DNA from: an uncultured Dehalococcoidaceae bacterium
GTDB lineage: Bacteria; Chloroflexota; Dehalococcoidia; Dehalococcoidales; RBG-16-60-22
Direction of reading: 5' to 3'
DNA length: 35,301 nucleotides
Assembly (NCBI GenBank): GCA_964580635.1
Contig: CAZOMF010000002.1
Span: 1-35,301 of the forward strand
In this document: positions 15,862 to 30,407 of the stretch, in pieces
Layout: each line of letters starts with the position of its first letter
How positions within the stretch are numbered: the stretch's first letter is position 1
The notes under the pieces: generated by a model
What the model was told of the DNA's origin: nothing
Databases searched by the model: none
Seen by the model: the letters and a program-made list of their open reading frames with translations, nothing else
Translations under genes and position numbers: made by a program

Positions 15862-18102
15862 ATGAAGAAACGAATTTTATGGGGGGTAGTGGGGCTGGCC
15901 GGTCTGCTGGTAATGGCGCTGCTGATCGTCTCATGCCAGGGCTCGCCGGGGGCAACCGGTCCGGCGGGAGCGACCGGACCTGCGGGACCCGCCGGGCCAG
16001 CCGGACCTGCCGGCGCCACCGGCGCAACCGGTCCGCAGGGACCGGCCGGACCAGCCGGGCCTGCCGGCCCCATGGCTCCCGGCATCGATACCGGGGAGAA
16101 CGTCACCGTGCAGATTTCCCAGCCGGCCAACGGGCAATACCTGGCCGTGGGCGAAGCAGCGACGGTAACCGTGATGCTGAAGGACAACTACGGGAACGCC
16201 CTGTCCCGGTCGGACTTCAGCACGCTCAGTCTGTACCTCGATGGTCCGCAGGAGACCACCGAGACGGTTACGGCCGTAAAGATGCTCAACGCGAGCACCG
16301 ACCGCAGCCAGAACCCGCACTACTACATCGATCTCCTGACGAACCCTGACGCGCAGGAGAGCAACGGTGTGGTCACCTACAAGCTCCAGCCGGTCAGCGA
16401 CGAGCTGCCCGGGACCTACATGGTCGGCGTCAGGGCGATCAAGAAGGACAACGCGCTGGACCAGAGCTTCCCGCTCCAGAGTTTCCAGCTCGGTACCGCG
16501 ACGGTGGAGGCCCAGATAGTGAGCGCCGACAACTGCGGCAGCTGCCACTACGATGCCCTGAACGGGCAGTACTACCTTCATCACACCCAGGTCTCCAGCC
16601 GCAGCGCGGTCGGCAGCCCGGCCCTCGATTCGCTGCCGGTCGAGACCTGCAAGTTCTGCCACAACAACGACGGCTACGCCGCTTACCACGGCAATATCGA
16701 CGATCCCTCGGCCGGGACCGACGTCGAGACCCCGGATCCCATCGTGCGGCGCGTGCACGGCGTCCATATGGGCTCCCAGCTCGAGAACCCGTTCAATACC
16801 GATAACGCCACCGGCAACTTCGCGGACTTCACGTCCGTCGTGTTCCCGGCGAATGTGGAGAACTGCACCGCCTGCCATACCGATGACCGGTGGAAGACCG
16901 AGCCGTCCATCGAGGCGTGCGGCTCCTGCCACGACAACATCTGGTTCGGCCCGGTGGCCGATATGCCGGCCACGGCCGAGGCCCATCCCGGCGGCCCGCA
17001 GTCGAACGACCAGCTGTGCAGCGCCTGCCACCCGGCGGATGGCCCGTCGCCTTCCGTCTCTGGCGCTCACGACGTGACGCAGACGCTCGATACACTCGAT
17101 ATCACCATGACGCCGCCGGCCAACGGCAAGTACTACGTCGACGGCGAAGCACCCAAGATCACCATCAACGTCCTCGACGACAACGGCAACGTCGTCGACC
17201 CGACCATGGTCACGGATGCCAACTTCTCAGGGGCCGACCTCTTCGTCTACGGCCCGCGCGACATGGCCAGGCCGGTCCTCACCCTCGCTTCCCATGACCT
17301 CGGCACCGGCTACGACAATCCCAACGACCTGCTCGATCCCGCCGCGGACCCGGCCATCTCCGTGACGGCGTCCGGTATCACCTACCAGCTCGATGCCATC
17401 CAGGGTCTCGATGCCGGCACCTATATGGTGTACTCCTTCATCAACCCGAAGGAAGGCGCGGTCGCCGACATGACGGCCAACTCGGCCATCGGGCTGATCA
17501 ACTTCCAGGTCGGCACGGCCACCGTGGAACCCAAGATAGCCGAGAACTGCACCGACTGCCACGGCAATACCATCTGGCATGACGACGGCACCCATATCCA
17601 TCCCGAGCCGTTCGATACCGACTACTGTCTCGCCTGCCACGACTACGGCCGCGGCGGCACCGGCGACCTGTGGGCCGCCATCGGCGGGAACTCCACCAGC
17701 GGCTTCGCCGGCTACGGCGCCCAGCCGCTCTCGAACCGCGTTCATGGCGTCCACTACGGCGCCTACGTGGCTAATCCGGACTACATCACCTCCAACGGCG
17801 CCTTCTCGGACGTCGTCTTCCCGCAGGACATCAGGGATTGCCAGAAGTGCCACGATTCGAACACCTCCGGCGCCTGGAACTCCGACCCGAACCGGCTGGC
17901 TTGCAGCGGCTGCCACAACGATGGCACCGCCCTCGCTCACATGAATACGATGATCGATAACTTCAACCGGCTCGATCCGTACAGCGAGGACTCCACCCCG
18001 GCCTGCGAGATCTGCCACGGCGCCGATGCCGACTTCGCCCCGGCCAAGGTACACAGCATCGCCAACCCGTACGTACCGCCGTACCCGCGCGCCGGCGGCT
18101 AG
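15862..18102 (+). CDS. Lipoprotein decaheme c-type cytochrome with a collagen-like stalk (MtrC/OmcA-like domain layout)
   Basis: 746 aa. Signal peptide plus lipobox LIVS-C25. (G-X-Y)15 at residues 27-71. Ten CxxCH motifs at C225, 263, 335, 353, 386 and C563, 589, 660, 681, 715. The internal duplication is visible: QLGTATVEAQIV..NCGSCH vs QVGTATVEPKIAENCTDCH; RRVHGVHMG vs NRVHGVHYG; FTSVVFPANVENCTACH vs FSDVVFPQDIRDCQKCH. AAGAGG lies 5 nt upstream of the ATG. Confidence 0.9.
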   Translation: MKKRILWGVVGLAGLLVMALLIVSCQGSPGATGPAGATGPAGPAGPAGPAGATGATGPQGPAGPAGPAGPMAPGIDTGENVTVQISQPANGQYLAVGEAATVTVMLKDNYGNALSRSDFSTLSLYLDGPQETTETVTAVKMLNASTDRSQNPHYYIDLLTNPDAQESNGVVTYKLQPVSDELPGTYMVGVRAIKKDNALDQSFPLQSFQLGTATVEAQIVSADNCGSCHYDALNGQYYLHHTQVSSRSAVGSPALDSLPVETCKFCHNNDGYAAYHGNIDDPSAGTDVETPDPIVRRVHGVHMGSQLENPFNTDNATGNFADFTSVVFPANVENCTACHTDDRWKTEPSIEACGSCHDNIWFGPVADMPATAEAHPGGPQSNDQLCSACHPADGPSPSVSGAHDVTQTLDTLDITMTPPANGKYYVDGEAPKITINVLDDNGNVVDPTMVTDANFSGADLFVYGPRDMARPVLTLASHDLGTGYDNPNDLLDPAADPAISVTASGITYQLDAIQGLDAGTYMVYSFINPKEGAVADMTANSAIGLINFQVGTATVEPKIAENCTDCHGNTIWHDDGTHIHPEPFDTDYCLACHDYGRGGTGDLWAAIGGNSTSGFAGYGAQPLSNRVHGVHYGAYVANPDYITSNGAFSDVVFPQDIRDCQKCHDSNTSGAWNSDPNRLACSGCHNDGTALAHMNTMIDNFNRLDPYSEDSTPACEICHGADADFAPAKVHSIANPYVPPYPRAGG
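15940..16074 (+). repeat. Collagen-like G-X-Y triplet repeat (15 triplets) inside the cytochrome gene
   Basis: GSP GAT GPA GAT GPA GPA GPA GPA GAT GAT GPQ GPA GPA GPA GPM. Nearly every copy uses different synonymous codons (ggt ccg gcg / gga cct gcg / gga ccc gcc / ggg cca gcc ...). Confidence 0.9.
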
Positions 18103-18202: not shown

Positions 18203-18246
18203 ACCCGATATATCGGGTTGAAATGCCGTCGTATTCGACCTATAAT
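18203..18246 (+). promoter_or_regulatory. Near-consensus promoter with a 16-bp palindromic operator, upstream of selenoprotein gene 1
   Basis: Palindrome ACCCGATATATCGGGT (18203-18218) abuts TTGAAA (18218-18223), then a 17-nt spacer, then TATAAT (18241-18246). The ATG at 18311 is preceded by GGAGGA. Confidence 0.6.
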
Positions 18247-18310
18247 GACCAGAATGAAAATCCGGCCCGGAATCTCTCTTTGATCGCACACCGGGCGGCG
18301 GAGGAAGTGT

Positions 18311-20080
18311 ATGTCCTACCAGATACTGCTCTCGGTGATGAGCCCTGAGACCGGAGTGAAGAAAGCCCCCGGCGCCCCGCCGCCCGGAATGGGTGCGCCG
18401 GCCAAAGGAAAAGCGACCAGGGCCAAACGGCTCGATACGCTGGAAGGCAAGACCGTCTACCTGGTGGATACCGGCTTCGGCGGGGGCTATAACTTCTTCG
18501 TGCAGCTCCAGAAATGGTTCCAGGAGCATATGCCATCCGTCAGGACCGTCCGCAAGCGCAAGCCGGGCAACCTGTTCCGGGACGATAACGACACCCTCTG
18601 GGAGGAGATCAAGCAGAAGGGCGATGCCGCGGTCGTCGGGGTGGCCGGCTGACCGGGCTGCGTGACGGCGGTCGCCGCCAGCCACACCAAGCTCGAACAG
18701 ACCTACGGTGTCCCCGTGGCCCCGCTCTCCACCTACCAGTTCCAGACGGTGGTCCAGGGTAACCCGATGTCTTCCTCGCTGCCCTTCGTGTACACGCCGC
18801 ACCCGGTCATCGGCCTGTCTCCGGAGGCGCTCGACGCCTACATAATCGGCGAGGACCCGGACACCGGGAAGACCGTCATCGACGAGATCATCGATGTCCT
18901 CACAAAACCGGTCGAACGCAACAGCGGGAAACCCGCCGCCTCGGCCTCCGGCGAACCGGCAGCGACCGGGACCACGCTCGGCCCGGACACCGAGGACAAC
19001 CTCCAGCGCCTGTTCTACGAGCGGGGCTGGACGGACGGCCTGCCCGTCATCCTGCCCACCGAGGAGCGCGTCCGGGCGATGCTGAAGGGCACCAGCGCCG
19101 CCCCGGACGAGGTCGTGGCCGAGCAGTTCTCGTTCGCGACGCGGGAGATGATACAGTACACCGTCGAGCACTTCGCGGTCATCGCGGTGATGGCCGGCGC
19201 CCGGCCGGAGTACTTCCCGGTCATCCTCGCCATCGGAGCGACCAAGCAGAGCTCGCTCATGCCCTCCACCACCCCCTTCGAGGCGATGCTGCTCGTTAAC
19301 GGTCCCGTCCGGCGGGAGATCGGCATGAACTGCGGCATCGGCGCCTACAGCGCCGTCAACATGGCCAACGCGGTGCTGGGCCGGGCCTGGACGCTGATGA
19401 GCATCGTCCACGGGTTCGCCAGGCCGCGGTCCACGCTGTGGAGTTCGCAGGGCAACAACCATACCTACAACAATATGTGCGCCGGCGAGAACGAGGAGGC
19501 GAGCGTCTGGGAACCGTTCCACGTTACCAAAGGCTTCACCGCCGAAGAGAGCGTCGTCAGCATTTTCCGGGGCTGGAGCTTCCTCAACAGCACCGGGGCG
19601 GCCTCCAAGCGCTCGCTCGGGGAGGAGCTGAACCTCCAGCTCGCCGTCATGCCGCCCGTTAACTCGTCGTGCACCATCATCATGGACCCGCTCGTGGCGA
19701 AGAACCTGAAGGAGAACGAGGGCTACGCCACGAGGCAGGACTTCACCGGATGGATGTCCGAGAATATCAGGATGCCGAACGGGCAGTTCTGGAAGACGGA
19801 CTACATCGATATGCTCGTCGCCTCCGAGGCGTACAAGGGCGTCGAACCCTACGCGTCCTGGAAAGCGCTCCCGGACGACGCCATGATAGCCCCCTACCAC
19901 AAGCCGGAGAACATCAATATCATCGTCGTGGGCGGCGAGACGAGCCCGCTCTGGAAGGTGGCGGACTACGGCTACTCCGGCAGTTCCTCCGTCGACCGCT
20001 GGCGACCGCTCGCCGCCGACGCGGACTGTCCCGACGGTTCCTGCGGTCTGTCAGACCCCGTGGGCGACTACGACGAGTAG
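18311..20080 (+). CDS. Predicted selenoprotein: U-x-x-C (UPGC) redox module fused to an uncharacterised ~450-aa domain; in-frame TGA at 18650-18652 read as Sec114
   Basis: Track ORFs 18311..18652 and 18662..20080 are in the same frame, separated only by TGA. The sequence across the junction is ...GDAAVVGVAG-U-PGCVTAVAASHTKLEQTYGVPVAPL.... The downstream part has no ATG or SD of its own. The paralog at 23216..24904 has a TGA at the aligned position (...LDTLIVAYGD-U-GSCTKYSLYNAISAEERGIPAVAV...). A hairpin with a GGUC apical loop starts 3 nt after the TGA. Confidence 0.75.
18656..18683 (+). other. Candidate bacterial SECIS hairpin for the TGA at 18650
   Basis: GGCTGCGTGACGGCGGTCGCCGCCAGCC. Lower stem is 18656-18659 with 18680-18683. 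Upper stem is GGC/GCC closing the apical loop GGUC (18670-18673). Further pairs are 18666-18677, 18664-18678 and 18662-18679, leaving a bulged U at 18663. The loop sits about 18-21 nt after the UGA. Confidence 0.4.
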
Positions 20081-20104
20081 GCAGATAGACCGCCGTACCA
20101 CACC

Positions 20105-20138
20105 GGCCCCCGGAAAAAACTCTCCGGGGGCCTTTTGT
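20105..20138 (+). terminator. Intrinsic terminator after selenoprotein gene 1
   Basis: GGCCCCCGGA aaaaactc TCCGGGGGCC followed by TTTTGTT. Confidence 0.85.
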
Positions 20139-20514
20139 TGACATAAGGAAAACACCGGGATGGCTGCGAGGAAAACAGCCGCACTGCTGCCGCGAAACGG
20201 CGAAAACGCGCGCCATTTTTTACCGGAGCGGACTACGCGGTTCGTATGATGCCGCGACAGGCGGGTGCCAGTGGAGCCGGTGATCTCCCGGTCCGGCGTG
20301 ATATCGCTTCAAAGCGAACGTAAAACAGGGCATATTTGAAGCTATTGCACGGGTAAAATCCTGAAGGCCAAACCAGCGGAATATGTAGCCAGTCTACCCG
20401 GTGAATAGTATTCCGGCTGACTCCTACGCTGTGGTATAGTGGCAGTATCTGCTACTGCATTTTTACCGTCGAGACGTGGCGATTTCCGCCAGACCCAACC
20501 CCGGAGGTACGTAC

Positions 20515-20586
20515 ATGCCGCGAGATACGAGCCGGAAAGAACTCCTCAAGAAAGCCCGTATCGTTTCTCATAACCTGAGTATCTAG
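20515..20586 (+). CDS. Possible 23-aa leader/small ORF upstream of the Rieske gene
   Basis: GGAGGT lies 6 nt upstream of the ATG at 20515. MPRDTSRKELLKKARIVSHNLSI, TAG at 20584. The SD is strong, but I see no recognisable family or TM segment. The Rieske gene itself has no obvious SD. Confidence 0.2.
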   Translation: MPRDTSRKELLKKARIVSHNLSI

Positions 20587-20609
20587 ATAGGTTAGTGTAA
20601 AGCCGAAAA

Positions 20610-21101
20610 ATGATGAACTTCAAAAACAATATCACCAGACGAGACTTTCTGAAACGTATCGTTATCGGCGGCGCCGGCGCCGTCGCCGCGGCCATCGCCA
20701 CGCCGCTCATCGGTTCGTTCCTCAGCCCCCTATGGCAGAAGAGCAAAAAACCGGCCATCGCGGTGGCCCATACTGACCAGATACCAGTCGGCACGCCGAC
20801 CTTTGTCCGCTTCGAAGAGCGCGCGCCGGACGGCTGGCTGGTGACGACGGAGAGCCTGGGCGTCTGGATACTCACCCAGGACGGTAAAAACTTTACCCTC
20901 TACGACCCGCACTGCACGCACCTGCGCTGCCCGTTCTACTGGGACGCTCAGAAGAAAACGTTCATGTGCCCGTGCCATGGCGGAGAGTTCGATATCGACG
21001 GCAACGTCATCGCCGGGCCGCCGCCCCGCCCGCTGGACCGCTGGGAGTTTACGATCCAGGACGGTGAAATCATCACGTCAGGGGAGATAATCAAAGGTTA
21101 A
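20610..21101 (+). CDS. Rieske [2Fe-2S] protein of a cytochrome bc-type complex, Tat-exported
   Basis: 163 aa. Twin-arginine motif TRRDFLK followed by a TM helix. Box I is CTHLRCP and box II is CPCHGGEF, including the disulfide cysteines typical of bc1/b6f Rieske proteins. Confidence 0.92.
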   Translation: MMNFKNNITRRDFLKRIVIGGAGAVAAAIATPLIGSFLSPLWQKSKKPAIAVAHTDQIPVGTPTFVRFEERAPDGWLVTTESLGVWILTQDGKNFTLYDPHCTHLRCPFYWDAQKKTFMCPCHGGEFDIDGNVIAGPPPRPLDRWEFTIQDGEIITSGEIIKG

Positions 21102-23129
21102 ATGGCTGAGCAAAAAAACAACGGCTGGGTTGAAGAGCGCCTATCGCTCAAAAAGCCCTGGGGATGGTTCCTAGACCGGAAAGTGCCGCGCACCGGGTGG
21201 GTGTATACCCTCGGCAGCGCTACGATGTTCGTGTTCATCATCCAGGTGATGACGGGCATCTTCCTGATGTTCAACTACTCACCGTCGCCGGACCACGCCT
21301 GGGACAGCATCAATTACATTATGACCAACGTGACCTTCGGCGCGTTCATACGGAGCATGCACTTCTACGCGGCCAGCGCCATGGTCATTCTCGTTATCCT
21401 GCACCTGGTGCGTGTCTTTTTCATGGCGGCCTATAAATACCCGCGCGAGCTCACCTGGGTCGTTGGCGTCGGGCTCCTGCTGCTGGTGCTCGGCTCGTCC
21501 TTTACCGGTTACCTGCTGCCCTGGGACCAGCGGGCTTACTGGGCTACCAACGTCGCCTCCGGCATCGCCGGTGAAACGCCGTTTATCGGTCACTGGGTAC
21601 AGGCCCTCCTCATAGGAGGGTCCCAGATAGGCACGGTGACGCTCACGCGTTTCTTTACCTTCCACGTCATCGTCATCCCGGCGCTGACCGCCGGGCTCAT
21701 CGGTCTCCACCTGATGATGGTGGTGCGCCAGGGCATCTCGGCCTCGCCCCGCAAGATGAAGGGTCAGATGCTGCCCGCCCAGACCGTGAAGGACGCCTAC
21801 GAAGCCGAATACGAAGCCAGCAAGAAGGACGGCGAGTCCTTCTTCCCCGGTACCTTGGCCAAGGATACCATCATGGCACTGGCGGTGGTAGGCGTCATCA
21901 TGCTGCTGGCCGCCCTCTTCCCGCATGTCAGCCAGGCCCCGGCGGACCCCACCAGCACGACCTATAACCCCCGCCCCGAGTGGTACTTCCTCTTCTTCTT
22001 CGAGTTCCTCAAGCTCTTCCCCGGCTCACTGGAGTCGGTGGCCGCGGTCCTGGTGCCCGCGCTCGCCTTCCTGCTGCTGCTGGCAGTGCCGTTCCTGAGC
22101 CGCGGCTTCCGGCGTACCTGGTCGAGCCGCAAGGTTTCCCTCTCCGTCGGCGGAGTGGTCGTGGCCGGGTTGCTCATCTTTGAGGTACTCGGCGCGGCAT
22201 CGGCCCCGGCGCGACCGGAGGTCGGCCTCACCGAGGTCCAGGTACAGGGGCAGCGCGTCTACCAGGAGGTTAACTGCGGCTACTGCCACACCATCAACGG
22301 CATCGGCGGCGCCGTCGGTCCCGACCTCTCCAATATCGCTTCGACGCTCACCCCGGACCAGATAAAAGCCTATCTCAGCAACCCGGACGCGATGGTGCCC
22401 AACACGCTCCATCCCAAGCTTCAGTTCACGCCGGACGAGCTGAACGAGCTGACCGCCTATCTCTCCACTTTGGGCGCGCCGGTAAGCTACAGCGCCCAGG
22501 CCCCGGGTCTCTTCGACAAATATTGCAGCAGCTGCCATGCCGTCAACGGCCAGGGCGGCACCATCGGGCCCGACCTGACCGATGTCGGCAGCCGGCACCC
22601 GCTGACCTTCATCGAATCGTTCATCAGCGATCCCGGTTCCGTGGTTACCGGCGCCAGCATGCCCGCCTTCCACGATAAGCTGACTCAGGACCAGATCAAC
22701 GATATCGCCGGCTATCTCTTCAGTCTCAAGAACAGCGCTGCCACGCCGACACCGACCGCGACAGCCACGACGCCCAGCCCGACGGCGACCACCACCACGA
22801 CGCCGACCATGACGACGACCAGCCATACGGCCACGACCACGCCGAGCCCGACTACTACGACGACCAGCCCCACGGCTACCACCACCACGACGACGGCCGC
22901 GATCGATGCCGCCGGTCTTTACACGCAGTATTGCGCCGGGTGCCACGGGGACAGCCGGCAGGGAGGTATCGGGCCGGCGCTGACGCCATCGATACTGGGC
23001 GGCCAGTCGATTTCGGAGATAACCGGCGTGATCACCCAGGGTAAAGAAAACATGCCGGGTTTCTCCAGTCTGTTAAGCGCCGACCAGATCGACGCCCTGG
23101 CCAACTACATACAGACCTCACAACCCTAA
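21102..23129 (+). CDS. Fused cytochrome b (b6-like) + subunit IV + three monoheme cytochrome c domains
   Basis: 675 aa. The ATG abuts the Rieske TAA. Helix B histidines are SMH-x13-H and helix D histidines are FH-x14-H (b6/Firmicute-type spacing). Qo-site motif PEWYF. Then CGYCH, CSSCH, a Thr/Pro-rich linker and CAGCH, each followed by an MP-type methionine ligand region. Confidence 0.9.
   Translation: MAEQKNNGWVEERLSLKKPWGWFLDRKVPRTGWVYTLGSATMFVFIIQVMTGIFLMFNYSPSPDHAWDSINYIMTNVTFGAFIRSMHFYAASAMVILVILHLVRVFFMAAYKYPRELTWVVGVGLLLLVLGSSFTGYLLPWDQRAYWATNVASGIAGETPFIGHWVQALLIGGSQIGTVTLTRFFTFHVIVIPALTAGLIGLHLMMVVRQGISASPRKMKGQMLPAQTVKDAYEAEYEASKKDGESFFPGTLAKDTIMALAVVGVIMLLAALFPHVSQAPADPTSTTYNPRPEWYFLFFFEFLKLFPGSLESVAAVLVPALAFLLLLAVPFLSRGFRRTWSSRKVSLSVGGVVVAGLLIFEVLGAASAPARPEVGLTEVQVQGQRVYQEVNCGYCHTINGIGGAVGPDLSNIASTLTPDQIKAYLSNPDAMVPNTLHPKLQFTPDELNELTAYLSTLGAPVSYSAQAPGLFDKYCSSCHAVNGQGGTIGPDLTDVGSRHPLTFIESFISDPGSVVTGASMPAFHDKLTQDQINDIAGYLFSLKNSAATPTPTATATTPSPTATTTTTPTMTTTSHTATTTPSPTTTTTSPTATTTTTTAAIDAAGLYTQYCAGCHGDSRQGGIGPALTPSILGGQSISEITGVITQGKENMPGFSSLLSADQIDALANYIQTSQP
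22737..22901 (+). repeat. Thr/Pro/Ala-rich low-complexity linker coding region
   Basis: Encodes AATPTPTATATTPSPTATTTTTPTMTTTSHTATTTPSPTTTTTSPTATTTTTTAA, between the second and third cytochrome c domains. Confidence 0.85.
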
Positions 23130-23215: not shown

Positions 23216-24904
23216 CTAGTACCGGACGTAATTCGGGACGACGTTCTTGTACTTTTTGACGAGCTTGTCCCAGTTCTGTGGGAACTCTATCTTCTGTATC
23301 TCGGCGCAACCCGGCGTCGGCACGCCGCCCATCGCGTGGGCGATGAACGAGCCTGGCCCGCCGGCCACGAGCACCCGGATCACCCGCGGGTCGCGGACGA
23401 GCGGCAGGGTATCGCCCTCGCGGGCGGTGACGTGCCCCTTGAAGAGCTTGGGTGCGCCCTGTCCCATCGCCCGTCCCCGCTGGGTCGCCGGCAGGCGCTT
23501 GTACTCGCAGATGAAGTCCCGGATGTCCTGCTTGGTCCAGCCGAAGGAGGCCAGCGTCTTGGCGTGGAGCGGCGGGAACATGATGGAGTAGCCGAAGCCC
23601 GGCACGATGTTGTCCAGCACGGACCGCATGATGCCGTCCTCGTCGTTGCTCGGCGGATAGTGCTGGACGTAAGACTGCGGGAAGGTCAGCATGAGGGTGC
23701 TGTCCTCGCGGCTGAAGCCGTACTCGGTGTGGAGCGGTTCCCAGGGGCTCTCCTCCTCGTTCTCCGGCATGACGGCGGTGTACTTCATCGGGTTGCCCAT
23801 GACGCCCATGTCCTCGATGCCCTTGCGGACGCCGCCGAGGTTCTTGATGACGAAGCCCAGCGCCCGTCCGATAGCCGCGTTGGCGATATTACCCGGGCTC
23901 AGCACGCCGGAGCTGCTGTTGAGGTTGATCTGGCCCCGGACGGGCCCGTTGACGGTCCAGAACGGCGCCCAGGAACCGGTGCTGACGCCGAAGGTAGTGA
24001 AGCCCTGGAAACCCATCTCCGAATCGAGCAGCAGCCGCGTCCCGGCCAGGATGACCGGCAGGTGGGTGGGCAGGGCGCCGGCCATGACGGCGTTGACGGC
24101 TACCTTCTCCACCGTCACCTTGCCCAGGCGCGGGATAAGCTTGCCGAGGAGCGTGTCCCGGGCGAGGTCCGTGCCCGTCAGCATCTCGGCGACGCGGTCC
24201 TCGGTCGGGGGGATGATGGGGAAGCCGTCCGTCCAGCCGCGCTGGTAGTAGAAGCGGTTGACGTCGTCGAGGCTGCCCTTGAAGACGAGCCGGCTGACCT
24301 TCTCCGTTTTCGCCGGGGCGGGCGAGCGCTCCGCCTCGGTGAGGGGCGTCACCGCTGCCTTGACGATGGCGTCCACGGCGAGCAGTGTGTTCTGTTCGAT
24401 GACGTCGAGCATGGTGGATTCCGGCGGCACCGTGGTGGGCACGAAGCGCACCCCCGGCATGGCCCGGCTCGAAGCGGCCGAGTGGGCGTCCTCGATGAAG
24501 CCGTCGTTGATGACGGCGACGGCCGGGATGCCGCGCTCTTCCGCGGAAATTGCATTGTACAAACTGTACTTGGTGCAGGACCCTCAGTCGCCGTAGGCGA
24601 CGATGAGGGTGTCGAGACCCTTGAGCCAGTCTTCGAACTTCTCCTTGTTGATGGATTCCGCCTCCGGCGTGTTCATCTGGGTCTCCTGGTACCAGGCGAA
24701 GGTGGCGTCCGGGTAGCGCCGGGAGAGCTCTTTTTCCAGCACGTCGAGCAGCGGCTTGGAGGCGCGTTTCCAGATGTGGTAGAGGCCGATGGTCTTGCCG
24801 GCGAGGTCGGCGGGGCGTTCAACAGTGAGGCCGCGTGGCGCCACCGGGTCGACCTCCGCCCAGGGACTGAGCGTTTCGTACGCGGGGGATGCGTTCTGTG
24901 GCAT
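23216..24904 (-). CDS. Predicted selenoprotein paralog: U-x-x-C (UGSC) module fused to the same uncharacterised domain; in-frame TGA at 24586-24584 read as Sec107
   Basis: Track ORFs 24584..24967 and 23216..24562 share a frame and are separated only by TGA. The true start is probably ATG at 24904 (MPQNASPAYETL), with GGAGGT 4 nt upstream. Blocks shared with the 18311 gene: GKT(V/I), D-x8-U-x-x-C, G(V/I)P(V/A), (Y/F)Y(E/Q)RGWTDG(L/F)P(V/I)I(L/P)PTE(E/D)RV, AV(I/N)AVMAGA, NGPVR, ENEE.S.WEP(F/L)H. Confidence 0.75.
24551..24577 (-). other. Weak candidate SECIS hairpin for the TGA at 24586
   Basis: On the minus strand: UGCA CCAA GUAC aguuu GUAC AA UGCA. Two 4-bp stems with an internal loop, starting 6 nt after the UGA. 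This stretch is unusually AT-rich for coding sequence here. There is no GGUC loop, so support is weak. Confidence 0.3.
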
Positions 24905-25059
24905 ACTTACCTCCTGATACGGGTTTGCGCAGCGTTCGCCCCGACACGCGGGGCGGCGCCTGTCCATTCATCATATACGATACGCAAGCGCACCGCCACC
25001 ATGCGTTGCCGTTATTCCGCGTTGTGAAACACACGCACGGAGCACGCGTTTTTTCGTAA

Positions 25060-25075
25060 TGTGACATAGTTCACA
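25060..25075. promoter_or_regulatory. Perfect TGTGA-N6-TCACA palindrome (CRP/FNR-family-type site)
   Basis: TGTGA catagt TCACA, in the divergent intergenic region between selenoprotein gene 2 (start 24904, minus) and the NrfD-like gene (start 25230, plus). The centre is about 70 nt upstream of the transcription start predicted from TATAAT at 25125. Confidence 0.45.
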
Positions 25076-25101
25076 GACTTGATTGCTCAAATGATGTATC
25101 A

Positions 25102-25130
25102 TGGAAATGTAAGGTTAAGTATCGTATAAT
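25102..25130 (+). promoter_or_regulatory. Candidate promoter of the NrfD-like gene
   Basis: TGGAAA (25102-25107), a 17-nt spacer, then TATAAT (25125-25130). Two GCGTAACG direct repeats (25156-25163 and 25182-25189) lie in the predicted leader. Confidence 0.35.
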
Positions 25131-25229
25131 AAATAAAGCATTGAAACGCTAATATGCGTAACGATTATTAGAAAACACTGCGCGTAACGTAATCAAGCAA
25201 CCCCCGGACCGGAAGGAGTACCTGCCCCG

Positions 25230-26132
25230 ATGTCGAATGCAATACATGATTGGATGGTCAACTATACCCGCCAGACCGAGTGGATAGACCGACGCGGTCT
25301 TTTCCTCTGGGTGGCCTTTTTCTCCGGCACGCTCGGCGGCGGCCTCTACCTGGCGTCGCTCTATTTCAACAGCATCTGGGGCATGTTCGCCGGCTGGCTC
25401 ATCGTCGCCGTCATCAAGGGCGGCGCTCACATGATGGACCTCGGCAAGCCATGGCGCGCCTGGCGCATGGTGATGCGGCCCGGCTCTTCTTGGATGTCCC
25501 GCGGGCTCATCTTCGTATTTACCTTCATCGGCGCCGGCGCCGTCCAGCTCGCCCTCTCGCTCTGGCTGCCAGGCAGCGCCGCCGAGATCACCAGCAAGAT
25601 ACTGGCCGGCATGGCCGCCTTCGGCGTGGCCATCTACAGCGGCTTCGTGCTCAACACGGTCAAGGGCGTGCCCTTCTGGAACTCGGCCCTCCTGCCCATG
25701 CTCGTCGGCCTCTACGGCGTGCTCTGCGGGCTCGGCGTGATGATGGTCATCGGCCTCGCCGGCAGCAGCATCGACCTCACCCTCGCCGAGGGCGTCAGCC
25801 GCTACCTCATCTTCACCACTACCGCCCTCATCGCCGTCTATCTCTGGACGGCCGCCCGGCGCGGCCCCACCGGCCGGAACTCTGTCCTCCAGCAGGTCCG
25901 CGGCGAGCTGAAGACGGTCTTCTGGGGCGGCCTCGTGACGCTCGGCATCGTGGTGCCGGTCGTCATCGCCATCGTGAGCTTCTTCGTCAGCGAGGTATCC
26001 CCGGTGCTGCTTGTCATCGGCGTCGTCTCCGAGGTCGTCGGCGGGCTCTCGCTCGGCTTCTGCGTGCTCAAGGCCGGGGCTTACAAACCCCTCGTCGCCA
26101 GGCCCGCCCACAGCCGCCAGCCCGTTCGCTAG
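25230..26132 (+). CDS. NrfD/PsrC-like polytopic membrane protein (putative quinone-interacting anchor), orphan
   Basis: 300 aa with about 8 TM helices. The N-terminal pattern W..R.LFLWVAFFSGTLGGGLYL resembles the first helix of NrfD-family subunits; this assignment is by eye. GGAAGGAG lies upstream of the ATG. The gene has its own promoter and terminator, and no adjacent 4Fe-4S or catalytic subunit gene. Confidence 0.55.
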   Translation: MSNAIHDWMVNYTRQTEWIDRRGLFLWVAFFSGTLGGGLYLASLYFNSIWGMFAGWLIVAVIKGGAHMMDLGKPWRAWRMVMRPGSSWMSRGLIFVFTFIGAGAVQLALSLWLPGSAAEITSKILAGMAAFGVAIYSGFVLNTVKGVPFWNSALLPMLVGLYGVLCGLGVMMVIGLAGSSIDLTLAEGVSRYLIFTTTALIAVYLWTAARRGPTGRNSVLQQVRGELKTVFWGGLVTLGIVVPVVIAIVSFFVSEVSPVLLVIGVVSEVVGGLSLGFCVLKAGAYKPLVARPAHSRQPVR

Positions 26133-26200: not shown

Positions 26201-27472
26201 CTAGTAGACGCCGAACTCTTTCACCGCGTCCACCCAGGCCCTGACGAGCGCCGGCTGGCTGCCGCCCATTTCGCCGACACCGGTAGACATCAGGAAGCCG
26301 CCGCCCTTGCCGGCGTGCTCGCACACCTTCCGGGTACGTTCGCGGACCTCTTCCGGCGTGCCCGCCGCCAGCATCGAGTTCGGCATGCCGCCGATGATGC
26401 ACATCGTGCCTCCCACGATGTCCTTGACCTTGAAGATATCGCTCGCCTGGAACCAGCCCACCGTCTTGCCCTTCGGCAGCTCGGCCAGGTACTCGAGCCG
26501 CTGGTCCCAGATGCCCTCGTAGAACACGACCGGGCGGATGCCGTTCTCCACGAGCGTCACCAGCACGTGCTTGAGCTGGGGCCAGTAGAACTTCTCGAAC
26601 TGCTTGAGTGACATGAACCCGTCCGAGCCCCGGTGGAGCGGCAGGAAGGCGTTCTCCATGCCGGTGGCCTTGCACATGGTGATGGCGTACTCGAGCTGGA
26701 ACCTGGCCACCTTCTCCTCGGCGGCCAGCAGTTTGTCCGGCCGCTGCATCAGGTCGAGCATGATGCCGCGCATGCCCCGCATGGTGTCGGACATGAGGTC
26801 GAAGGGCGCCTCGATGCCCGCCCCGGCCAGGATGCTGCCCGGGAACCCGAGTGCCGCCATGCGCTGGGCGCTTTCGATGACCCGCATCGTGCCGTCGGCC
26901 ACGGCCTGGATGACCTTGGCGAAGGTCTTCAGCGATTCCGCCAGCGGTCCCATGCCGAACCCGCCGACGTTGCTCATGAAGTAGCTGCCGGACACGAACA
27001 TGGCGAGCGGCGGCAGCAGTGTGAAGCCTTCGAGCTTCTCGTACGCCCGCGGCAGGTACGTGCGGATGGCCCAGTCCGACGGGTCTTCCAGGAAGGCGTC
27101 GTAATCGTCCGCCTTCATGAACTCGTGCTCGACGAACTGGTACTGGTTATCGGGGGCGAGCTGGTGGCCCGGCCAGGCCGTCATCCGGTCGCCGAGCATG
27201 AGGTAGGGGGTTGGGTCACCCGGCAGCGGCCCGAAGATAGAGTCCGGCTGGTATTCCAGCGCCGCCTGCTCCAGCAGCTCCTGGCATTTGTCCGGGTTAT
27301 CGAGGAGTTCCTGCTTGGTGATGCCGCCGATCTCCGCCAGCATGTAGCTGATCGGCATCATGATCGGGACGCGGTCCGGCTGACGCAGGTTGAGGACGTC
27401 GTTGAGCCGCCTGGTGCGTTCCTGCAAGAGCTGTTCGGGTTTCTTACCGGCGTCGCTGTTGCTGCTTGGCAT
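26201..27472 (-). CDS. Uroporphyrinogen decarboxylase (URO-D) family protein, MtaA/CmuA-like methyltransferase-type
   Basis: 423 aa. The overall pattern is that of URO-D-fold proteins (N-terminal ...PDRVPIM..., C-terminal ...GGGFLMSTG...); this family call is by eye. ATG at 27472 with GGGAGGA upstream. Lies downstream of the MFS gene on the same strand. Confidence 0.75.
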   Translation of the reverse strand: MPSSNSDAGKKPEQLLQERTRRLNDVLNLRQPDRVPIMMPISYMLAEIGGITKQELLDNPDKCQELLEQAALEYQPDSIFGPLPGDPTPYLMLGDRMTAWPGHQLAPDNQYQFVEHEFMKADDYDAFLEDPSDWAIRTYLPRAYEKLEGFTLLPPLAMFVSGSYFMSNVGGFGMGPLAESLKTFAKVIQAVADGTMRVIESAQRMAALGFPGSILAGAGIEAPFDLMSDTMRGMRGIMLDLMQRPDKLLAAEEKVARFQLEYAITMCKATGMENAFLPLHRGSDGFMSLKQFEKFYWPQLKHVLVTLVENGIRPVVFYEGIWDQRLEYLAELPKGKTVGWFQASDIFKVKDIVGGTMCIIGGMPNSMLAAGTPEEVRERTRKVCEHAGKGGGFLMSTGVGEMGGSQPALVRAWVDAVKEFGVY

Positions 27473-28895: not shown

Positions 28896-29072
28896 AGGTC
28901 AGGAAAGGGGCGTGCGAAGACGCCGCGTGGAAGAGGGGAGCAGCGCGGTCCCGGTGAAGGATATGGCGCCACGATCCGAACGGCAAATCGGCGGGCACTG
29001 GTAGGAACGAGCGGGGCGGGCCATATCCGGTTGTGGTCCTTTTTCTCAGCGGGTTCGGGCTCGGTCGACTTA

Positions 29073-29134
29073 ATACCGGAATAAATCTTCCGGTATCCTT
29101 ATTCCATTATCAATCTACCTCAATTGAAAGTCAA
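29073..29134 (-). promoter_or_regulatory. Candidate promoter plus inverted-repeat operator of the MFS/URO-D operon
   Basis: On the minus strand: TTGACT (29134-29129), a 17-nt spacer, then GATAAT (29111-29106). A perfect 9-bp inverted repeat follows, ATACCGGAA n6 TTCCGGTAT (29073-29096), just downstream of the predicted transcription start. Confidence 0.5.
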
Positions 29135-29212
29135 GAGGGTACCGGGGGATTTTTAGTAGGGGTACGTATGGGTTGGGCTGTCGAGCGGCTGCCTCGGGCG
29201 ACCGGTATCCTA

Positions 29213-30196
29213 TTATTCTTTGGTGCGGAGTTGCGCTCCCCGCGAGGGCTCCTCCCGGCCGCTCCGGTACTTCTTCACGTACTCGTCGAAGTCCCAGGTG
29301 CTGAAGAACTTCTGCGCCGCCTTCCGGCCGGACTCGTAGAGGGCCTCGCTCTTTTCCTTCGTGATATCGAACTCGGTCGTCCGCACGCCGAGGGTGGGTA
29401 TGGCCACCGTCCGCACGAAGTCGTGGTCGGCGATGTAGCGGGCATCGTGGGCCTCCATCATGGCGCTGAAGAGTGCCGTCAACATGCTCACCGGTCCCTT
29501 GATATCGGCCGGTTCGCCGGCGTCCGGCTCGACGAGCTTGAACCCGATAGTCGGCCAGGTGGGCGCGTCCGCGGTGTCGAAGAGCCAGACGGGATAGTTG
29601 CTGAGGATGCCCCCGTCCACGATGTAGCTCTTGCGGCCCGTTGTGAGGTTCTTCAGCGTCGCCGGCTCGTAGAAGAACGGGATGCTCATGCTCATCCGTA
29701 CCGCGTCCGCCACGTTGAGGTCTTCCGGACGGCCGCCGTAGTCGCGGATATCGCCGGGCAGCACCAGCAGCCTGCCGAGCGTGATGTCCGAGGCAATCAC
29801 GTTGAGCTTGAACCGGTAGCGGTCCTCCGTCTCGCCGGGAATGAGCAGGTCCCCGAAGGTCGTGATCCCCTTGGCCGCGAGCAGGTCGCGGAGCCAGTCG
29901 TGGAAATAGTCGCCTTCGTAGATGCCCTTCTCGGTGATGAGGCTGATGACCGGACCGGCCAGGGGAATCCGGTCGACCGGACTGCCGTCCTTGAAGCGCC
30001 GGTAATCGAGTTTGCTCAGGATGTCGTGAAGCTCGGCCGCCTTATACCCGGCCGCCGCCAGCGCCGCGATGATGGCCCCCGCCGAGGTCCCGGCCAGGTT
30101 CTGCCACTCGACGTCCCGCTGCTCGGCCACCGCCAGCGCCCCGGCGAAGCCGATGCCCTTGACCCCGCCCCCTTCGAATACGCCGTCCGCTTTCAT
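29213..30196 (-). CDS. Patatin-like phospholipase
   Basis: Starts MKADGVFEGGGVKG (oxyanion GGGxKG). Nucleophile elbow GTSAG and catalytic Asp context IVDGGILSNYP. ATG at 30196 with AAAGGA upstream. The 16 extra codons in the track ORF are not needed. Confidence 0.88.
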   Translation of the reverse strand: MKADGVFEGGGVKGIGFAGALAVAEQRDVEWQNLAGTSAGAIIAALAAAGYKAAELHDILSKLDYRRFKDGSPVDRIPLAGPVISLITEKGIYEGDYFHDWLRDLLAAKGITTFGDLLIPGETEDRYRFKLNVIASDITLGRLLVLPGDIRDYGGRPEDLNVADAVRMSMSIPFFYEPATLKNLTTGRKSYIVDGGILSNYPVWLFDTADAPTWPTIGFKLVEPDAGEPADIKGPVSMLTALFSAMMEAHDARYIADHDFVRTVAIPTLGVRTTEFDITKEKSEALYESGRKAAQKFFSTWDFDEYVKKYRSGREEPSRGAQLRTKE

Positions 30197-30407
30197 GCTT
30201 GTCCTTTCATGGTTGCCACACCGTATGCAGAACGATGGTAACACGCTGCCGCTGGATTGTAAACGGAGTTTTGTCGCATTTTTCGGTCCGTTTTTCAGGT
30301 TGCGGCGCCCCGGATGCCGTGGTATAGTACCACAATACCCGGCACGGGGGGCGGCGCCTGGTAGTCATGTTCGCAGCATCCGTGCCGGAACGTGTCCGGA
30401 CGGTCGT

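What the first reader, a model, noticed from the sequence alone, without database searches (positions are those of the whole stretch)
18311..20080. Hidden selenoprotein: two track ORFs joined by an in-frame TGA within a U-P-G-C motif
ORFs 18311..18652 and 18662..20080 are in one frame, separated only by TGA. Read as Sec, the junction gives a hydrophobic strand, then U-x-x-C, then a helix, then YGVP: the geometry of a redox-active selenol/thiol pair. The downstream 1.4 kb has no ATG or Shine-Dalgarno. The unit as a whole has a near-consensus promoter, a strong SD at 18311 and a strong terminator at 20105. The paralog at 23216-24904 has a TGA at the aligned residue. As far as I recall, a 'UGSC-containing' predicted selenoprotein family was noted in marine metagenome surveys, and the strand-U-x-x-C-...-GIP layout also resembles GrdB/PrdB-type reductase selenoproteins. 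I cannot verify membership in either. The fused ~450-aa C-terminal domain (RGWTDGLPVILPTEERV, NGPVR, ENEE.S.WEPFH) is not one I can assign to any known function.
Basis: partly seen in the sequence, partly recalled or inferred. Interest (0 to 1): 0.9.

Follow-up and report, generated by a model that had tools for sequence, protein, structure and literature searches.

The report
Two-domain UGSC-family selenoprotein gene
The two ORFs are one real gene whose in-frame TGA most likely encodes selenocysteine; it belongs to the known but functionally unexplained UGSC selenoprotein family, here fused to a large unnamed partner domain, so the gene is real and mis-annotated in databases but not a new kind of thing.

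Summary
18311..20080 is a single 589-codon reading frame with one TGA (18650-18652) in V-G-V-A-G-U-P-G-C. The minus-strand paralog 24904..23216 has a TGA (24586-24584) in Y-G-D-U-G-S-C.

All 57 gene copies I could read, from about 50 Dehalococcoidales, Bacillota and Acidobacteriota genome loci plus the window, keep TGA at this codon, with protein conservation on both sides. More distant full-length homologs carry CxxC there (CPGC, CSTC, CGSC). A hairpin with compensatory changes follows the TGA.

Residues ~30-180 match Pfam PF24696 (UGSC family), a selenoprotein family known since about 2005 and still of unknown function. The C-terminal ~350-400 residues match nothing in Pfam, NCBIfam, PDB sequences or PDB folds, although the models are confident.

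Elsewhere this domain is a separate gene directly next to a stand-alone UGSC gene (5 independent cases, including a haloarchaeon). The window gene is therefore a fusion of two obligate partners.

Conserved neighbours are a short-chain dehydrogenase (39 loci) and, for five Cys forms, a thioredoxin-reductase-like flavoprotein. This suggests an NAD(P)H-fed thiol/selenol reductase.

The family is known, and NCBI already names fused homologs 'UGSC family (seleno)protein'. Sec machinery could not be checked in this genome. Interest is moderate (0.4), not 0.9.

The parts
18218..18246 (+). sigma-70-like promoter TTGAAA-17-TATAAT
   Evidence: 11 of 12 matches; 0.2 expected in shuffles
18300..18305 (+). 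Shine-Dalgarno GGAGGA, 5 nt upstream of the ATG
   Evidence: read
18311..20080 (+). single CDS of 589 residues (Sec at residue 114), ending in TAG
   Evidence: tblastn matches to query residues 1-588 in one frame in ~45 loci
18401..18841 (+). UGSC domain (about aa 31-177), predicted flavodoxin/Rossmann-like alpha/beta fold
   Evidence: Pfam PF24696 at 52.1 bits (cut-off 25), aa 31-176; NF041046 at 41.8 bits; topology from the model of homolog P0136
18650..18652 (+). TGA read as selenocysteine, in the motif U-P-G-C
   Evidence: TGA in all 57 homologous copies; Cys at this position in P0135, P0136, P0145, P0149, P0174
18656..18683 (+). SECIS-like hairpin starting 4 nt after the TGA, with a G-rich apical loop (GGCG/GGUC)
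   Evidence: fold. On 29 orthologs, the upper helix is 86% paired and 3 of 5 pairs have compensatory changes. The 42 nt after UGA are more stable than other in-gene windows: median z -1.9 over the copies scored; this gene z -1.2
18983..20005 (+). unnamed partner domain (about aa 225-565). Conserved motifs: GWTDGLPxxxPTEERV, AVNAVMAG, VNGP, IGRA, ENEExSxWxPxH, VVGG, SxDxWR
   Evidence: no hit in Pfam, NCBIfam, PDB sequences or PDB folds; model pLDDT 89-93; 3668 representative clusters match
20027..20047 (+). C-terminal tail motif C-P-D-G-S-C-G (CxxxxC) on a low-confidence, probably flexible tail
   Evidence: C.DG.CG is present in 28 of the 57 Sec copies; tail pLDDT below 50; alignment
20105..20132 (+). 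intrinsic-terminator-like hairpin followed by TTTTGTTG
23216..24904 (-). paralogous CDS of 562 residues (Sec at residue 107), same two-domain architecture, ~27% identical to gene 1 in the part after Sec
   Evidence: PF24696 at 101 bits
24584..24586 (-). TGA read as selenocysteine in the literal U-G-S-C motif
   Evidence: also TGA in the 93%-identical copy in L001
24551..24577 (-). hairpin UGCA..GUACA-GUU-UGUAC..UGCA downstream of the paralog's TGA; candidate SECIS
   Evidence: It is not more stable than other windows of the gene (z +0.5), so the support is weak
24910..24915 (-). Shine-Dalgarno AGGAGG of the paralog
   Evidence: read

Best explanation
SHOWN. 18311-20080 is one gene, and its paralog 24904-23216 is another.

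- The internal TGA lies at a position occupied by Cys in homologs, so it is most likely decoded as selenocysteine. A downstream hairpin probably serves as the bacterial SECIS.
- The product has two parts. The first is an N-terminal UGSC-family domain, in which U-x-x-C sits between a beta-strand and the N-terminus of a helix. The second is a ~350-400-residue domain that no library names.
- In other genomes, a neighbouring gene next to a stand-alone UGSC gene encodes that second domain. The window protein is thus a fusion of two partners that belong together.

INFERRED.

- The Sec/Cys pair cycles between selenol/thiol and selenenylsulfide, and serves a reaction carried out on the partner domain.
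- Reducing power comes from NAD(P)H, through a thioredoxin-reductase-like flavoprotein or the general thioredoxin system.
- In about half of the Sec forms, including gene 1, a flexible C-terminal CxDGxCG tail may act as the relay.
- A short-chain dehydrogenase, encoded next to the gene in most Dehalococcoidales relatives though not in this window, probably acts on the same substrate.
- The substrate is unknown.
For: One frame and TGA conservation:
- The single TGA interrupts one frame.
- TGA is kept in 57/57 copies, in subtypes U-PGC, U-DGC and U-GSC. The copies come from Dehalococcoidales, Bacillota and Acidobacteriota, with both flanks conserved.
- All 120 best database homologs are N-terminally truncated at varying starts. 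That is the signature of gene callers stopping at a Sec codon.

Cys homologs: CPGC, CSTC and CGSC forms with the same architecture.

Hairpin after the TGA:
- Compensatory changes at third codon positions.
- The 42 nt after UGA are unusually stable compared with the rest of the gene, median z -1.9.

Family and fold:
- PF24696 matches above its cut-off.
- Confident models, pLDDT 89 and 93.

Partnership of the two domains. Stand-alone partner-domain genes lie directly beside stand-alone UGSC genes:
- L058, L062/63 and L064/65: UGSC genes with an in-frame TGA.
- L066/67: Cys form.
- Natrinema zhouii.

Electron supply. A TrxR-like gene is adjacent or in the same cluster in 5 Cys-form contexts:
- Pseudonocardia P0135
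- P0136
- P0145
- Neorhizobium galegae
- Variovorax

Other neighbours:
- An SDR gene lies next to the gene in 39 loci, directly adjacent and co-directional in most.
- SDR genes also lie beside P0136, and in the same operon as the stand-alone pair in L066/67.

Sec use in the lineage:
- Dehalogenimonas carries selC, the Sec synthesis genes and selB (PMC4918011).
- Dehalococcoidia MAGs are listed with 46-49 selenoproteins (PMC13326102).
Against: - No tRNA-Sec in the window, and no sel gene found among the ~30 ORFs scanned. The rest of the genome is not available, so Sec decoding in this organism is inferred.
- RNAalifold did not recover the hairpin as a consensus. The paralog's hairpin is not unusually stable.
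- No SDR or TrxR-like gene lies next to either copy in this window. Only one Sec-type locus (L029) has a TrxR-like gene nearby.
- Several family members have lost both redox residues: TVTS, MDTL, GGAT. The partner domain can therefore work without them.
- The partner domain has no conserved Cys or His, and no structural relative that would point to a chemistry.
- Neighbourhoods of distant members are heterogeneous: Opp-type ABC transporters, glycyl-radical enzymes, CoA-transferases.
Confidence: 0.85

Rival explanations
1. There are two separate genes. The TGA is a true stop that ends a 113-residue protein, and the ~470-residue protein is initiated independently, for example at GTG 18662.
For: Gene callers annotate it this way in all 120 best database hits. 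The UGSC domain and the partner domain do exist as separate genes in other genomes.
Against: - The stop falls inside the UGSC domain, not between the domains. The separate genes elsewhere split ~60-100 residues further on, and their stand-alone UGSC genes carry the same in-frame TGA.
- P-G-C immediately after the TGA is invariant, yet it precedes any start codon. Many orthologs have no ATG or GTG there, for example TGTATTGCA.
- Homologs have Cys at that codon in an uninterrupted frame.
- The frame is kept in 57/57 copies.
Confidence: 0.03
2. TGA is not Sec here. It is reassigned genome-wide to an ordinary amino acid (as in codes 4 or 25), or it is read through non-specifically.
For: TGA is a strikingly rare terminator:
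- 1 of 19 genes in this 64% G+C window (TAG 13, TAA 5).
- 11 of 127 neighbour genes in related loci.
Against: - None of the other 17 confidently identified genes needs an in-frame TGA to be full length.
- TGA still ends some genes.
- The recoded position is exactly the one that is Cys in homologs, within a CxxC motif.
- A positionally fixed hairpin follows the TGA.
Confidence: 0.04
3. Same gene, different mechanism. The protein is a GrdB/PrdB-type substrate-specific reductase. Sec itself attacks a carbon next to a carbonyl, forms a selenoether, and is released as a selenenylsulfide. The adjacent SDR makes the activating carbonyl. This is chemically parallel to glycine reductase, or to the SDR plus thiol beta-etherase route.
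For: - The U-x-x-C motif is the same type as in GrdB/PrdB (Table 2 of PMC2398784).
- Thioredoxin-reductase-like genes lie beside Cys forms, as trxB lies in grd clusters (my own knowledge).
- SDR adjacency in 39 loci.
- Several paralogs per locus, each with its own SDR (L003, L010, L016, L018-L021), as expected for substrate-specific catabolic enzymes.
Against: - No detectable sequence relation to PF07355 or TIGR01917; one member of 54 hit at E 0.064.
- No pyruvoyl-type or other carbonyl cofactor site could be identified.
- Members without any Cys or Sec exist.
- The substrate is unknown.
Confidence: 0.2
4. The TGA is a pseudogene lesion or a sequencing or assembly error.
For: None beyond the presence of a stop codon.
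Against: The same codon is present in 57 independent assemblies and in two paralogs within this window. Both halves are under protein-level conservation, and intact expression signals are present.
Confidence: 0.01

Closest known systems
UGSC family (seleno)protein (Pfam PF24696; NCBIfam NF041046; 'UGSC-containing protein' of Zhang & Gladyshev)
   Same: - The N-terminal domain matches the family models.
- It has the U-x-x-C motif, and Sec forms outnumber Cys forms.
- Function is unknown (PMC2398784, PMC1976440, PMC13188914).
- NCBI already gives this name to a fused 560-aa Cys homolog, WP_358488424.1.
   Different: - The classical members are ~150-215 aa and single-domain. Here the domain is fused to a ~400-aa partner.
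- Scores are below the NF041046 equivalog cut-off (42 and 87 against 125 bits).
- Gene 1 has U-P-G-C rather than U-G-S-C.
- A 'UGSC/Unknown_1' fusion was reported in 2008, but its figure is held only as an image. Identity with this partner domain could not be checked.
Glycine/sarcosine/betaine reductase protein B and D-proline reductase PrdB (PF07355)
   Same: - Selenoproteins with U-x-x-C.
- They work with a thioredoxin system.
- They are substrate-specific components encoded as families of paralogs.
   Different: - No sequence match.
- No GrdA/GrdE/PrdA-like genes are nearby.
- The partner domain is unrelated to anything named.
Thioredoxin / thioredoxin reductase couples fused or dedicated to a client enzyme
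   Same: A CxxC/UxxC motif at a helix N-terminus, with a ~310-330-aa Pyr_redox_2 flavoprotein carrying CxxC (CASC in N. galegae) encoded alongside.
   Different: The predicted UGSC-domain topology is a parallel beta-alpha-beta sheet of flavodoxin/Rossmann type. Foldseek returns flavodoxin, FtsZ N-domain and similar generic folds, not thioredoxins, and none below E 1e-3.
C-terminal shuttle cysteines of class I ribonucleotide reductase R1 (CxxxxC on a flexible tail)
   Same: A conserved CxxxxC (C-x-D-G-x-C-G) on a low-confidence, probably mobile C-terminal tail, in 28 of the 57 Sec copies.
   Different: This is an analogy from my own knowledge only. No homology is implied, and no evidence shows that the tail reaches the U-x-x-C site.

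Membership tests
UGSC family (Pfam PF24696) | HMM match above the Pfam gathering score | tested here: met
   52.1 bits (gene 1) and 101.3 bits (paralog) against a cut-off of 25
UGSC family (NCBIfam NF041046, equivalog) | whole-protein score at or above the curated cut-off of 125 bits | tested here: not met
   41.8 and 86.8 bits; best among 54 relatives E 2e-26. NCBI nevertheless names the fused homolog WP_358488424.1 'UGSC family (seleno)protein'
UGSC family | U/C-G-S-C motif after a hydrophobic strand | tested here: met
   The paralog has the literal U-G-S-C. Gene 1 has the variant U-P-G-C, and relatives have U-D-G-C
UGSC family | small single-domain protein (~150-215 aa) | tested here: not met
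   589 and 562 residues. The domain is fused to a ~400-aa partner
Bacterial selenoprotein (Sec recoding) | in-frame TGA conserved among orthologs, with coding conservation on both sides | tested here: met
   57/57 copies
Bacterial selenoprotein (Sec recoding) | homologs with Cys at the aligned position | tested here: met
   P0135 CSTC, P0136 CPGC, P0145 CSTC, P0149 CSTC, P0174 CGSC, N. galegae CSTC
Bacterial selenoprotein (Sec recoding) | SECIS stem-loop shortly downstream of the UGA, with G in the apical loop | tested here: met
   Gene 1 and its orthologs: hairpin with a GGUC/GGCG loop ~18-21 nt after the U of UGA, compensatory changes, and unusual stability. For the paralog alone the result is inconclusive (z +0.5). 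No dedicated bSECIS program was available.
Bacterial selenoprotein (Sec recoding) | selA, selB, selC (tRNA-Sec) and selD in the same genome | not testable with these tools
   No tRNA gene in the window, and no sel gene among the ORFs scanned. There is order- and class-level support from the literature only.
GrdB/PrdB reductase selenoprotein B (PF07355, TIGR01917) | HMM match to the family | tested here: not met
   No PF07355 hit at E<=1 in 56 members. TIGR01917 was touched by 1 of 54 members at E 0.064.
Thioredoxin-fold oxidoreductases | thioredoxin fold around the CxxC/UxxC | tested here: inconclusive
   The predicted topology is b-a-b-a-b-(CxxC)-a-b-a-b. Foldseek hits are generic alpha/beta folds, all above E 1e-3. 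This differs from the 'likely Trx-like fold' stated in PMC2398784.

The most novel reading that the evidence does not exclude
The UGSC domain and the unnamed ~350-400-residue partner domain, fused or adjacent in bacteria and haloarchaea, form the core of an undescribed reductase system. The system depends on Sec or Cys, is fed by NAD(P)H, and includes a dedicated SDR and a thioredoxin-reductase-like flavoprotein. It may perform reductive cleavage next to a carbonyl. If so, this would give a function to one of the most abundant environmental selenoprotein families.
Probability: 0.25. Interest if true: 0.7.

Novelty: new member of a known kind. Interest (0 to 1): 0.4.

Why it matters
Practical point. 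This gene, its paralog and essentially all of their close relatives are split or truncated in public protein sets. All 120 best hits are truncated. Selenoproteomes of Dehalococcoidales are therefore undercounted, and the N-terminal redox half of the protein is lost from annotation.

Scientific point. UGSC proteins rank among the most abundant selenoproteins in aquatic metagenomes and have had no function for about twenty years.
- The UGSC domain always travels with one specific, unnamed partner domain, either fused or encoded by the neighbouring gene.
- Cys forms come with a thioredoxin-reductase-like gene, and Sec forms in Dehalococcoidales with an SDR.
- Cys-form homologs exist in cultivable organisms such as Neorhizobium galegae, Variovorax and Natrinema.

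Together these make the question experimentally approachable. None of this changes the category: it is a member of a known family.

Tried and rejected
- **U-to-C substitution.** I used the 475-residue part after Sec instead.
- **RNAalifold.** On 29 orthologous TGA regions it returned a poor, different consensus. The lower stem shifts register between sequences, so I tested a hand-drawn structure and an in-gene stability comparison.
- **Shuffle z-scores.** Dinucleotide-shuffle z-scores of the two window hairpins were unremarkable (-0.4 and -0.9), as expected at 64% G+C.
- **Rfam and ARAGORN.** Rfam at gathering thresholds, and ARAGORN, found nothing in the window.
- **Searches for the partner domain.** All were negative or non-significant:
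  - PDB by sequence, with a single protein and with a profile.
  - PDB by fold, with two models.
  - Pfam and NCBIfam scans of 54-56 members.
  - The best fold hits were class I fumarate hydratase (E 2e-3, TM 0.16) and the Toblerone-fold cyanuric acid hydrolases (E 0.3). I do not regard them as evidence.
- **The 2008 'Unknown_1' domain.** I tried to check whether it is this domain. The figure panel is an image, and the stored sequence file is cut before the UGSC section.
- **Synteny with the window's own neighbours.** The cytochromes, the Rieske/cyt b genes and the two-component system are shared only with the closest relative, L001. They are not part of the system.
- **Other hidden selenoproteins.** A scan of the window for other ORFs joined by an in-frame TGA gave nothing convincing.
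- **Stand-alone UGSC search.** The word-index search with a stand-alone UGSC protein returned only 7 hits. How general the UGSC-partner adjacency is therefore rests on 5 independent cases.
Full report
**1. The observation**

Reading 18311-20080 in one frame gives 590 codons with one internal stop. That stop is TGA at 18650-18652, in the context AAVVGVAG-TGA-PGCVTAVAASHTKLEQTYGVP.

The minus-strand paralog starts at ATG 24904. It has TGA at 24586-24584 in LIVAYGD-TGA-GSCTKYS and ends with TAG at 23218-23216.

Gene 1 has the following signals:
- A promoter-like site TTGAAA-17-TATAAT at 18218-18246, with 11/12 matches against 0.2 expected.
- GGAGGA 5 nt before the ATG.
- A terminator-like hairpin with a T run at 20105-20132.

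The paralog has AGGAGG before its ATG and a terminator-like hairpin after its stop.

One detail of the finding is wrong. The downstream part is not free of ATG: the first in-frame ATG is at 18767. This does not affect the argument.

**2. The TGA is a coding position**

A scan of one genome per species returned 50 loci. They come mostly from Dehalococcoidales MAGs, with three Bacillota and two Acidobacteriota loci. tblastn matched query residues 1 to ~588 in one frame.

In every locus that holds the region, the codon aligned to residue 114 is TGA, and the flanking residues are conserved on both sides. A second pass also picked up second copies in the same loci. It found 57 copies, all with TGA, in three subtypes:
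- GVAG-U-PGC
- GVGG-U-DGC
- YGD-U-GSC

The invariant P-G-C follows the TGA directly and precedes any possible start codon. Several orthologs have no ATG or GTG there at all.

In the protein database, the 120 best hits are all 407-479 residues long and cover only the part after the TGA, with scattered starts. This is what gene callers produce at a Sec codon.

An exhaustive search of 1.84 billion representative proteins found 3668 related clusters. Among the full-length two-domain proteins in that set:
- Some carry CxxC at the aligned position: P0135 CSTC, P0136 CPGC, P0145 CSTC, P0149 CSTC, P0174 CGSC.
- Others have lost the motif: TVTS, MDTL, GGAT, SSTV.

**3. SECIS**

The 28 nt from 18656 to 18683 fold into a bulged hairpin with a G-rich tetraloop.

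RNAalifold on 29 orthologs did not recover it, because the lower stem changes register. When I counted a specified structure, the upper helix (columns 22-26 with 31-35) was 86% paired. Three of its five pairs showed changes on both sides, such as A-U to G-C at third codon positions. No shuffle reached the observed covariation score, and the structure beat all slid controls.

As an independent test, I compared the 42 nt after the UGA with other 42-nt windows of the same gene. Over the copies scored, the median z was -1.9, and 71% lay in the lowest decile. The loop stays at a fixed distance from the UGA.

Window gene 1 scores z -1.2. The window paralog has a hairpin (GUACA-GUU-UGUAC on a UGCA stem) but is not exceptional (z +0.5). 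Its SECIS is plausible rather than demonstrated.

**4. Sec machinery**

The window has no tRNA genes and no Rfam match. None of the ~30 ORFs I scanned with Pfam is a sel gene. I could not reach the rest of the genome.

Support is at lineage level only:
- Dehalogenimonas alkenigignens carries selC, the Sec synthesis genes and selB (PMC4918011).
- BSepDB lists Dehalococcoidia MAGs with 46-49 selenoproteins (PMC13326102).

**5. What the protein is**

Residues ~31-177 of gene 1 and ~27-183 of the paralog match Pfam PF24696 'UGSC family', at 52 and 101 bits against a cut-off of 25. They also match NCBIfam NF041046, but below its equivalog cut-off: 42 and 87 bits against 125.

The literature describes the 'UGSC-containing protein' as follows:
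- It is one of the most abundant selenoprotein families in ocean metagenomes.
- Its motif is UxxC.
- It had 255 Sec forms against 21 Cys forms in the GOS data.
- Its function is unknown (PMC2398784; PMC1976440; PMC13188914).

The 2008 paper mentions a 'UGSC/Unknown_1' fusion. I could not verify that Unknown_1 is the domain seen here.

NCBI names the fused Pseudonocardia homolog WP_358488424.1 'UGSC family (seleno)protein'. The family, and even the fused form, are therefore already in the annotation system.

**6. The rest of the protein**

The C-terminal ~350-400 residues have strongly conserved motifs:
- GWTDGLPxxxPTEERV
- AVNAVMAG
- VNGP
- IGRA
- ENEExSPWxPxH
- VVGG
- SxDxWR

There is no conserved Cys or His.

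Every library search for this part was negative:
- Pfam and NCBIfam, for the two window proteins and for 54-56 relatives.
- PDB sequences, with a single protein and with a profile.

AlphaFold models are confident:
- The window residues after Sec: pLDDT 89, pTM 0.88.
- The full-length Cys homolog P0136: pLDDT 93, pTM 0.92.

Foldseek against the PDB gives nothing below E 1e-3 for either model.

The UGSC domain is predicted as beta-alpha-beta-alpha-beta-[CxxC]-alpha-beta-alpha-beta. The CxxC sits between strand 94-100 and helix 105-120. The fold looks flavodoxin/Rossmann-like rather than thioredoxin-like.

**7. The two parts are partners**

Stand-alone versions of the C-terminal domain are encoded directly beside stand-alone UGSC genes in five independent settings:

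| Locus | Arrangement |
|---|---|
| L058 | partner gene, then a 175-codon UGSC gene with TGA in GD-U-GSC |
| L062/63 | UGSC gene with TGA in AA-U-GGC, then partner gene |
| L064/65 | UGSC gene with TGA in GD-U-GSC, then partner gene |
| L066/67 | partner gene, then a Cys-type GD-C-GSC gene; partner matches the window domain by BLASTP at E 5e-24 |
| Natrinema zhouii (haloarchaeon) | 'UGSC family (seleno)protein' overlapping by 4 nt a 350-aa 'hypothetical protein' that matches the window domain |

The window protein is therefore a fusion of two components that elsewhere are separate neighbours.

**8. Neighbourhood**

The window's own neighbours are shared only with the nearest relative, L001, so they say nothing about function. 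These neighbours are:
- a multihaem cytochrome
- Rieske and cytochrome b/c genes
- a two-component system
- a URO-D-like gene

Across the loci, the one recurrent neighbour is a ~320-aa short-chain dehydrogenase (PF00106). It lies next to the gene in 39 loci, directly adjacent and co-directional in most. It sits upstream of the U-PGC genes and downstream of the U-DGC genes.

Loci with two copies of the selenoprotein gene usually carry an SDR beside each copy. This window is an exception: tblastn finds no such SDR. L001 has one between the selenoprotein gene and the Rieske gene.

For Cys forms, a ~310-330-aa thioredoxin-reductase-like flavoprotein is adjacent or in the same cluster in five contexts:
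- Pseudonocardia P0135
- P0136
- P0145
- Neorhizobium galegae, with a CASC motif
- Variovorax boronicumulans

 Only one Sec-type locus, L029, has one.

SDR genes also lie beside P0136, and two SDRs sit in the same operon as the stand-alone pair in L066/67.

Other members sit in different settings:
- Opp-type ABC transporter operons
- next to CoA-transferases
- next to glycyl-radical enzymes
- after matA-matB

The family probably spans several substrates.

**9. Mechanism**

Shown:
- One reading frame with a recoded TGA at a Cys-equivalent position.
- A UxxC at a strand-helix junction.
- Fusion or adjacency with one specific partner domain.
- Association with SDR and TrxR-like genes.

Inferred:
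- The Sec/Cys pair is a redox centre that serves a reaction on the partner domain.
- It is re-reduced at the expense of NAD(P)H, either by the dedicated flavoprotein or by the general thioredoxin system.
- About half of the Sec forms, including gene 1 (20027-20047, C-P-D-G-S-C-G), have a conserved CxxxxC on a low-confidence C-terminal tail. By analogy with the tail cysteines of ribonucleotide reductase (my own knowledge), this tail could be the relay.

Open: whether Sec attacks the substrate directly, as in glycine or proline reductase, or only passes electrons. Family members lacking both redox residues argue that the partner domain has an activity of its own.

**10. Rivals**

- **Two independent genes.** Excluded by the position of the stop inside the domain, the conserved PGC before any start codon, and the Cys homologs.
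- **Pseudogene or sequencing error.** Excluded by 57/57 conservation.
- **Genome-wide reassignment of TGA.** This deserves a mention because TGA is a rare terminator here: 1 of 19 genes in the window, and 11 of 127 in related loci. It is unlikely, because no other identified gene needs an in-frame TGA, and the recoded site is the Cys position of a CxxC motif.

**11. Verdict**

The finding is real and correctly interpreted in its main point. It is a new member of a known, functionally uncharacterised selenoprotein family, in a fused architecture that NCBI already labels with the family name.

The added value is the evidence for an obligate partner domain that no library describes, and for SDR and TrxR-like companions. 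This turns an old 'unknown function' into a testable hypothesis in cultivable organisms.

Interest 0.4.

Noticed in passing
whole window; loci L001-L050: TGA is almost never used as a terminator despite 64% G+C. The window has TAG 13, TAA 5 and TGA 1 among 19 genes. Neighbour genes in related Dehalococcoidales loci have TAA 71, TAG 45 and TGA 11. This is unusual for a high-G+C bacterium and may relate to heavy Sec use or to release-factor biology.
   Followed up: partly
window 20027-20047; same motif in 28 of the 57 Sec copies (e.g. L002-L004, L044, L047): A conserved C-x-D-G-x-C-G motif sits on a low-confidence C-terminal tail, after the conserved SxDxWR end of the protein. It occurs in both the U-PGC and the U-DGC subfamilies. 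It is absent from the window paralog and from distant homologs.
   Followed up: partly
window 20081-20609 versus L001 7853-8812: In most relatives an SDR gene lies next to the selenoprotein gene. It is missing next to both copies in this window. The closest relative, L001 (86% identical), has it between the selenoprotein gene and the Rieske gene.
   Followed up: partly
window 15862-18102, 20610-21101, 21102-23129: A 746-aa multihaem cytochrome has MtrC/MtrF-like domains and a collagen-like N-terminal repeat. Nearby are a Rieske protein and a 675-aa cytochrome b fused to c-type cytochrome domains. This respiratory or extracellular-electron-transfer set is unexpected for Dehalococcoidales and is shared only with L001.
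   Followed up: no
window 26201-27472 (-); L019, L020, L024, L028, L047: URO-D-family genes (PF01208) recur within a few kb of the selenoprotein genes in six loci. An NrfD-like ORF lies at 25230-26132 (+), between the URO-D-like gene and the paralog.
   Followed up: no
protein database hits P0001-P0120: All 120 closest database proteins are N-terminally truncated at the Sec codon, with arbitrary starts. Most are named 'hypothetical protein'. This is systematic mis-annotation of the family.
   Followed up: yes
L068 (Neorhizobium galegae plasmid CP090555.1, 134658-137100): In this cultivable rhizobium the Cys-form fused homolog follows malonyl-CoA decarboxylase and malonyl-CoA synthase genes. 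A thioredoxin-reductase-like ORF (CASC) follows it and is missing from the plasmid gene table. The homolog is split by a frameshift in this assembly.
   Followed up: partly
L061 1571-11102: Two fused family members without redox residues (for example P0130, MDTL) flank two glycyl-radical enzymes and a radical-SAM activase.
   Followed up: no
window 30069-33023 (+): A 984-aa ORF has a Pyr_redox_2 domain in its C-terminal half and a long unassigned N-terminal half. It overlaps a 402-aa ORF (29033-30241) that has no family match.
   Followed up: no
window 25030-25200: A markedly A+T-rich stretch lies upstream of the paralog's start, in an otherwise 64% G+C window. It is probably the paralog's promoter region.
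   Followed up: no
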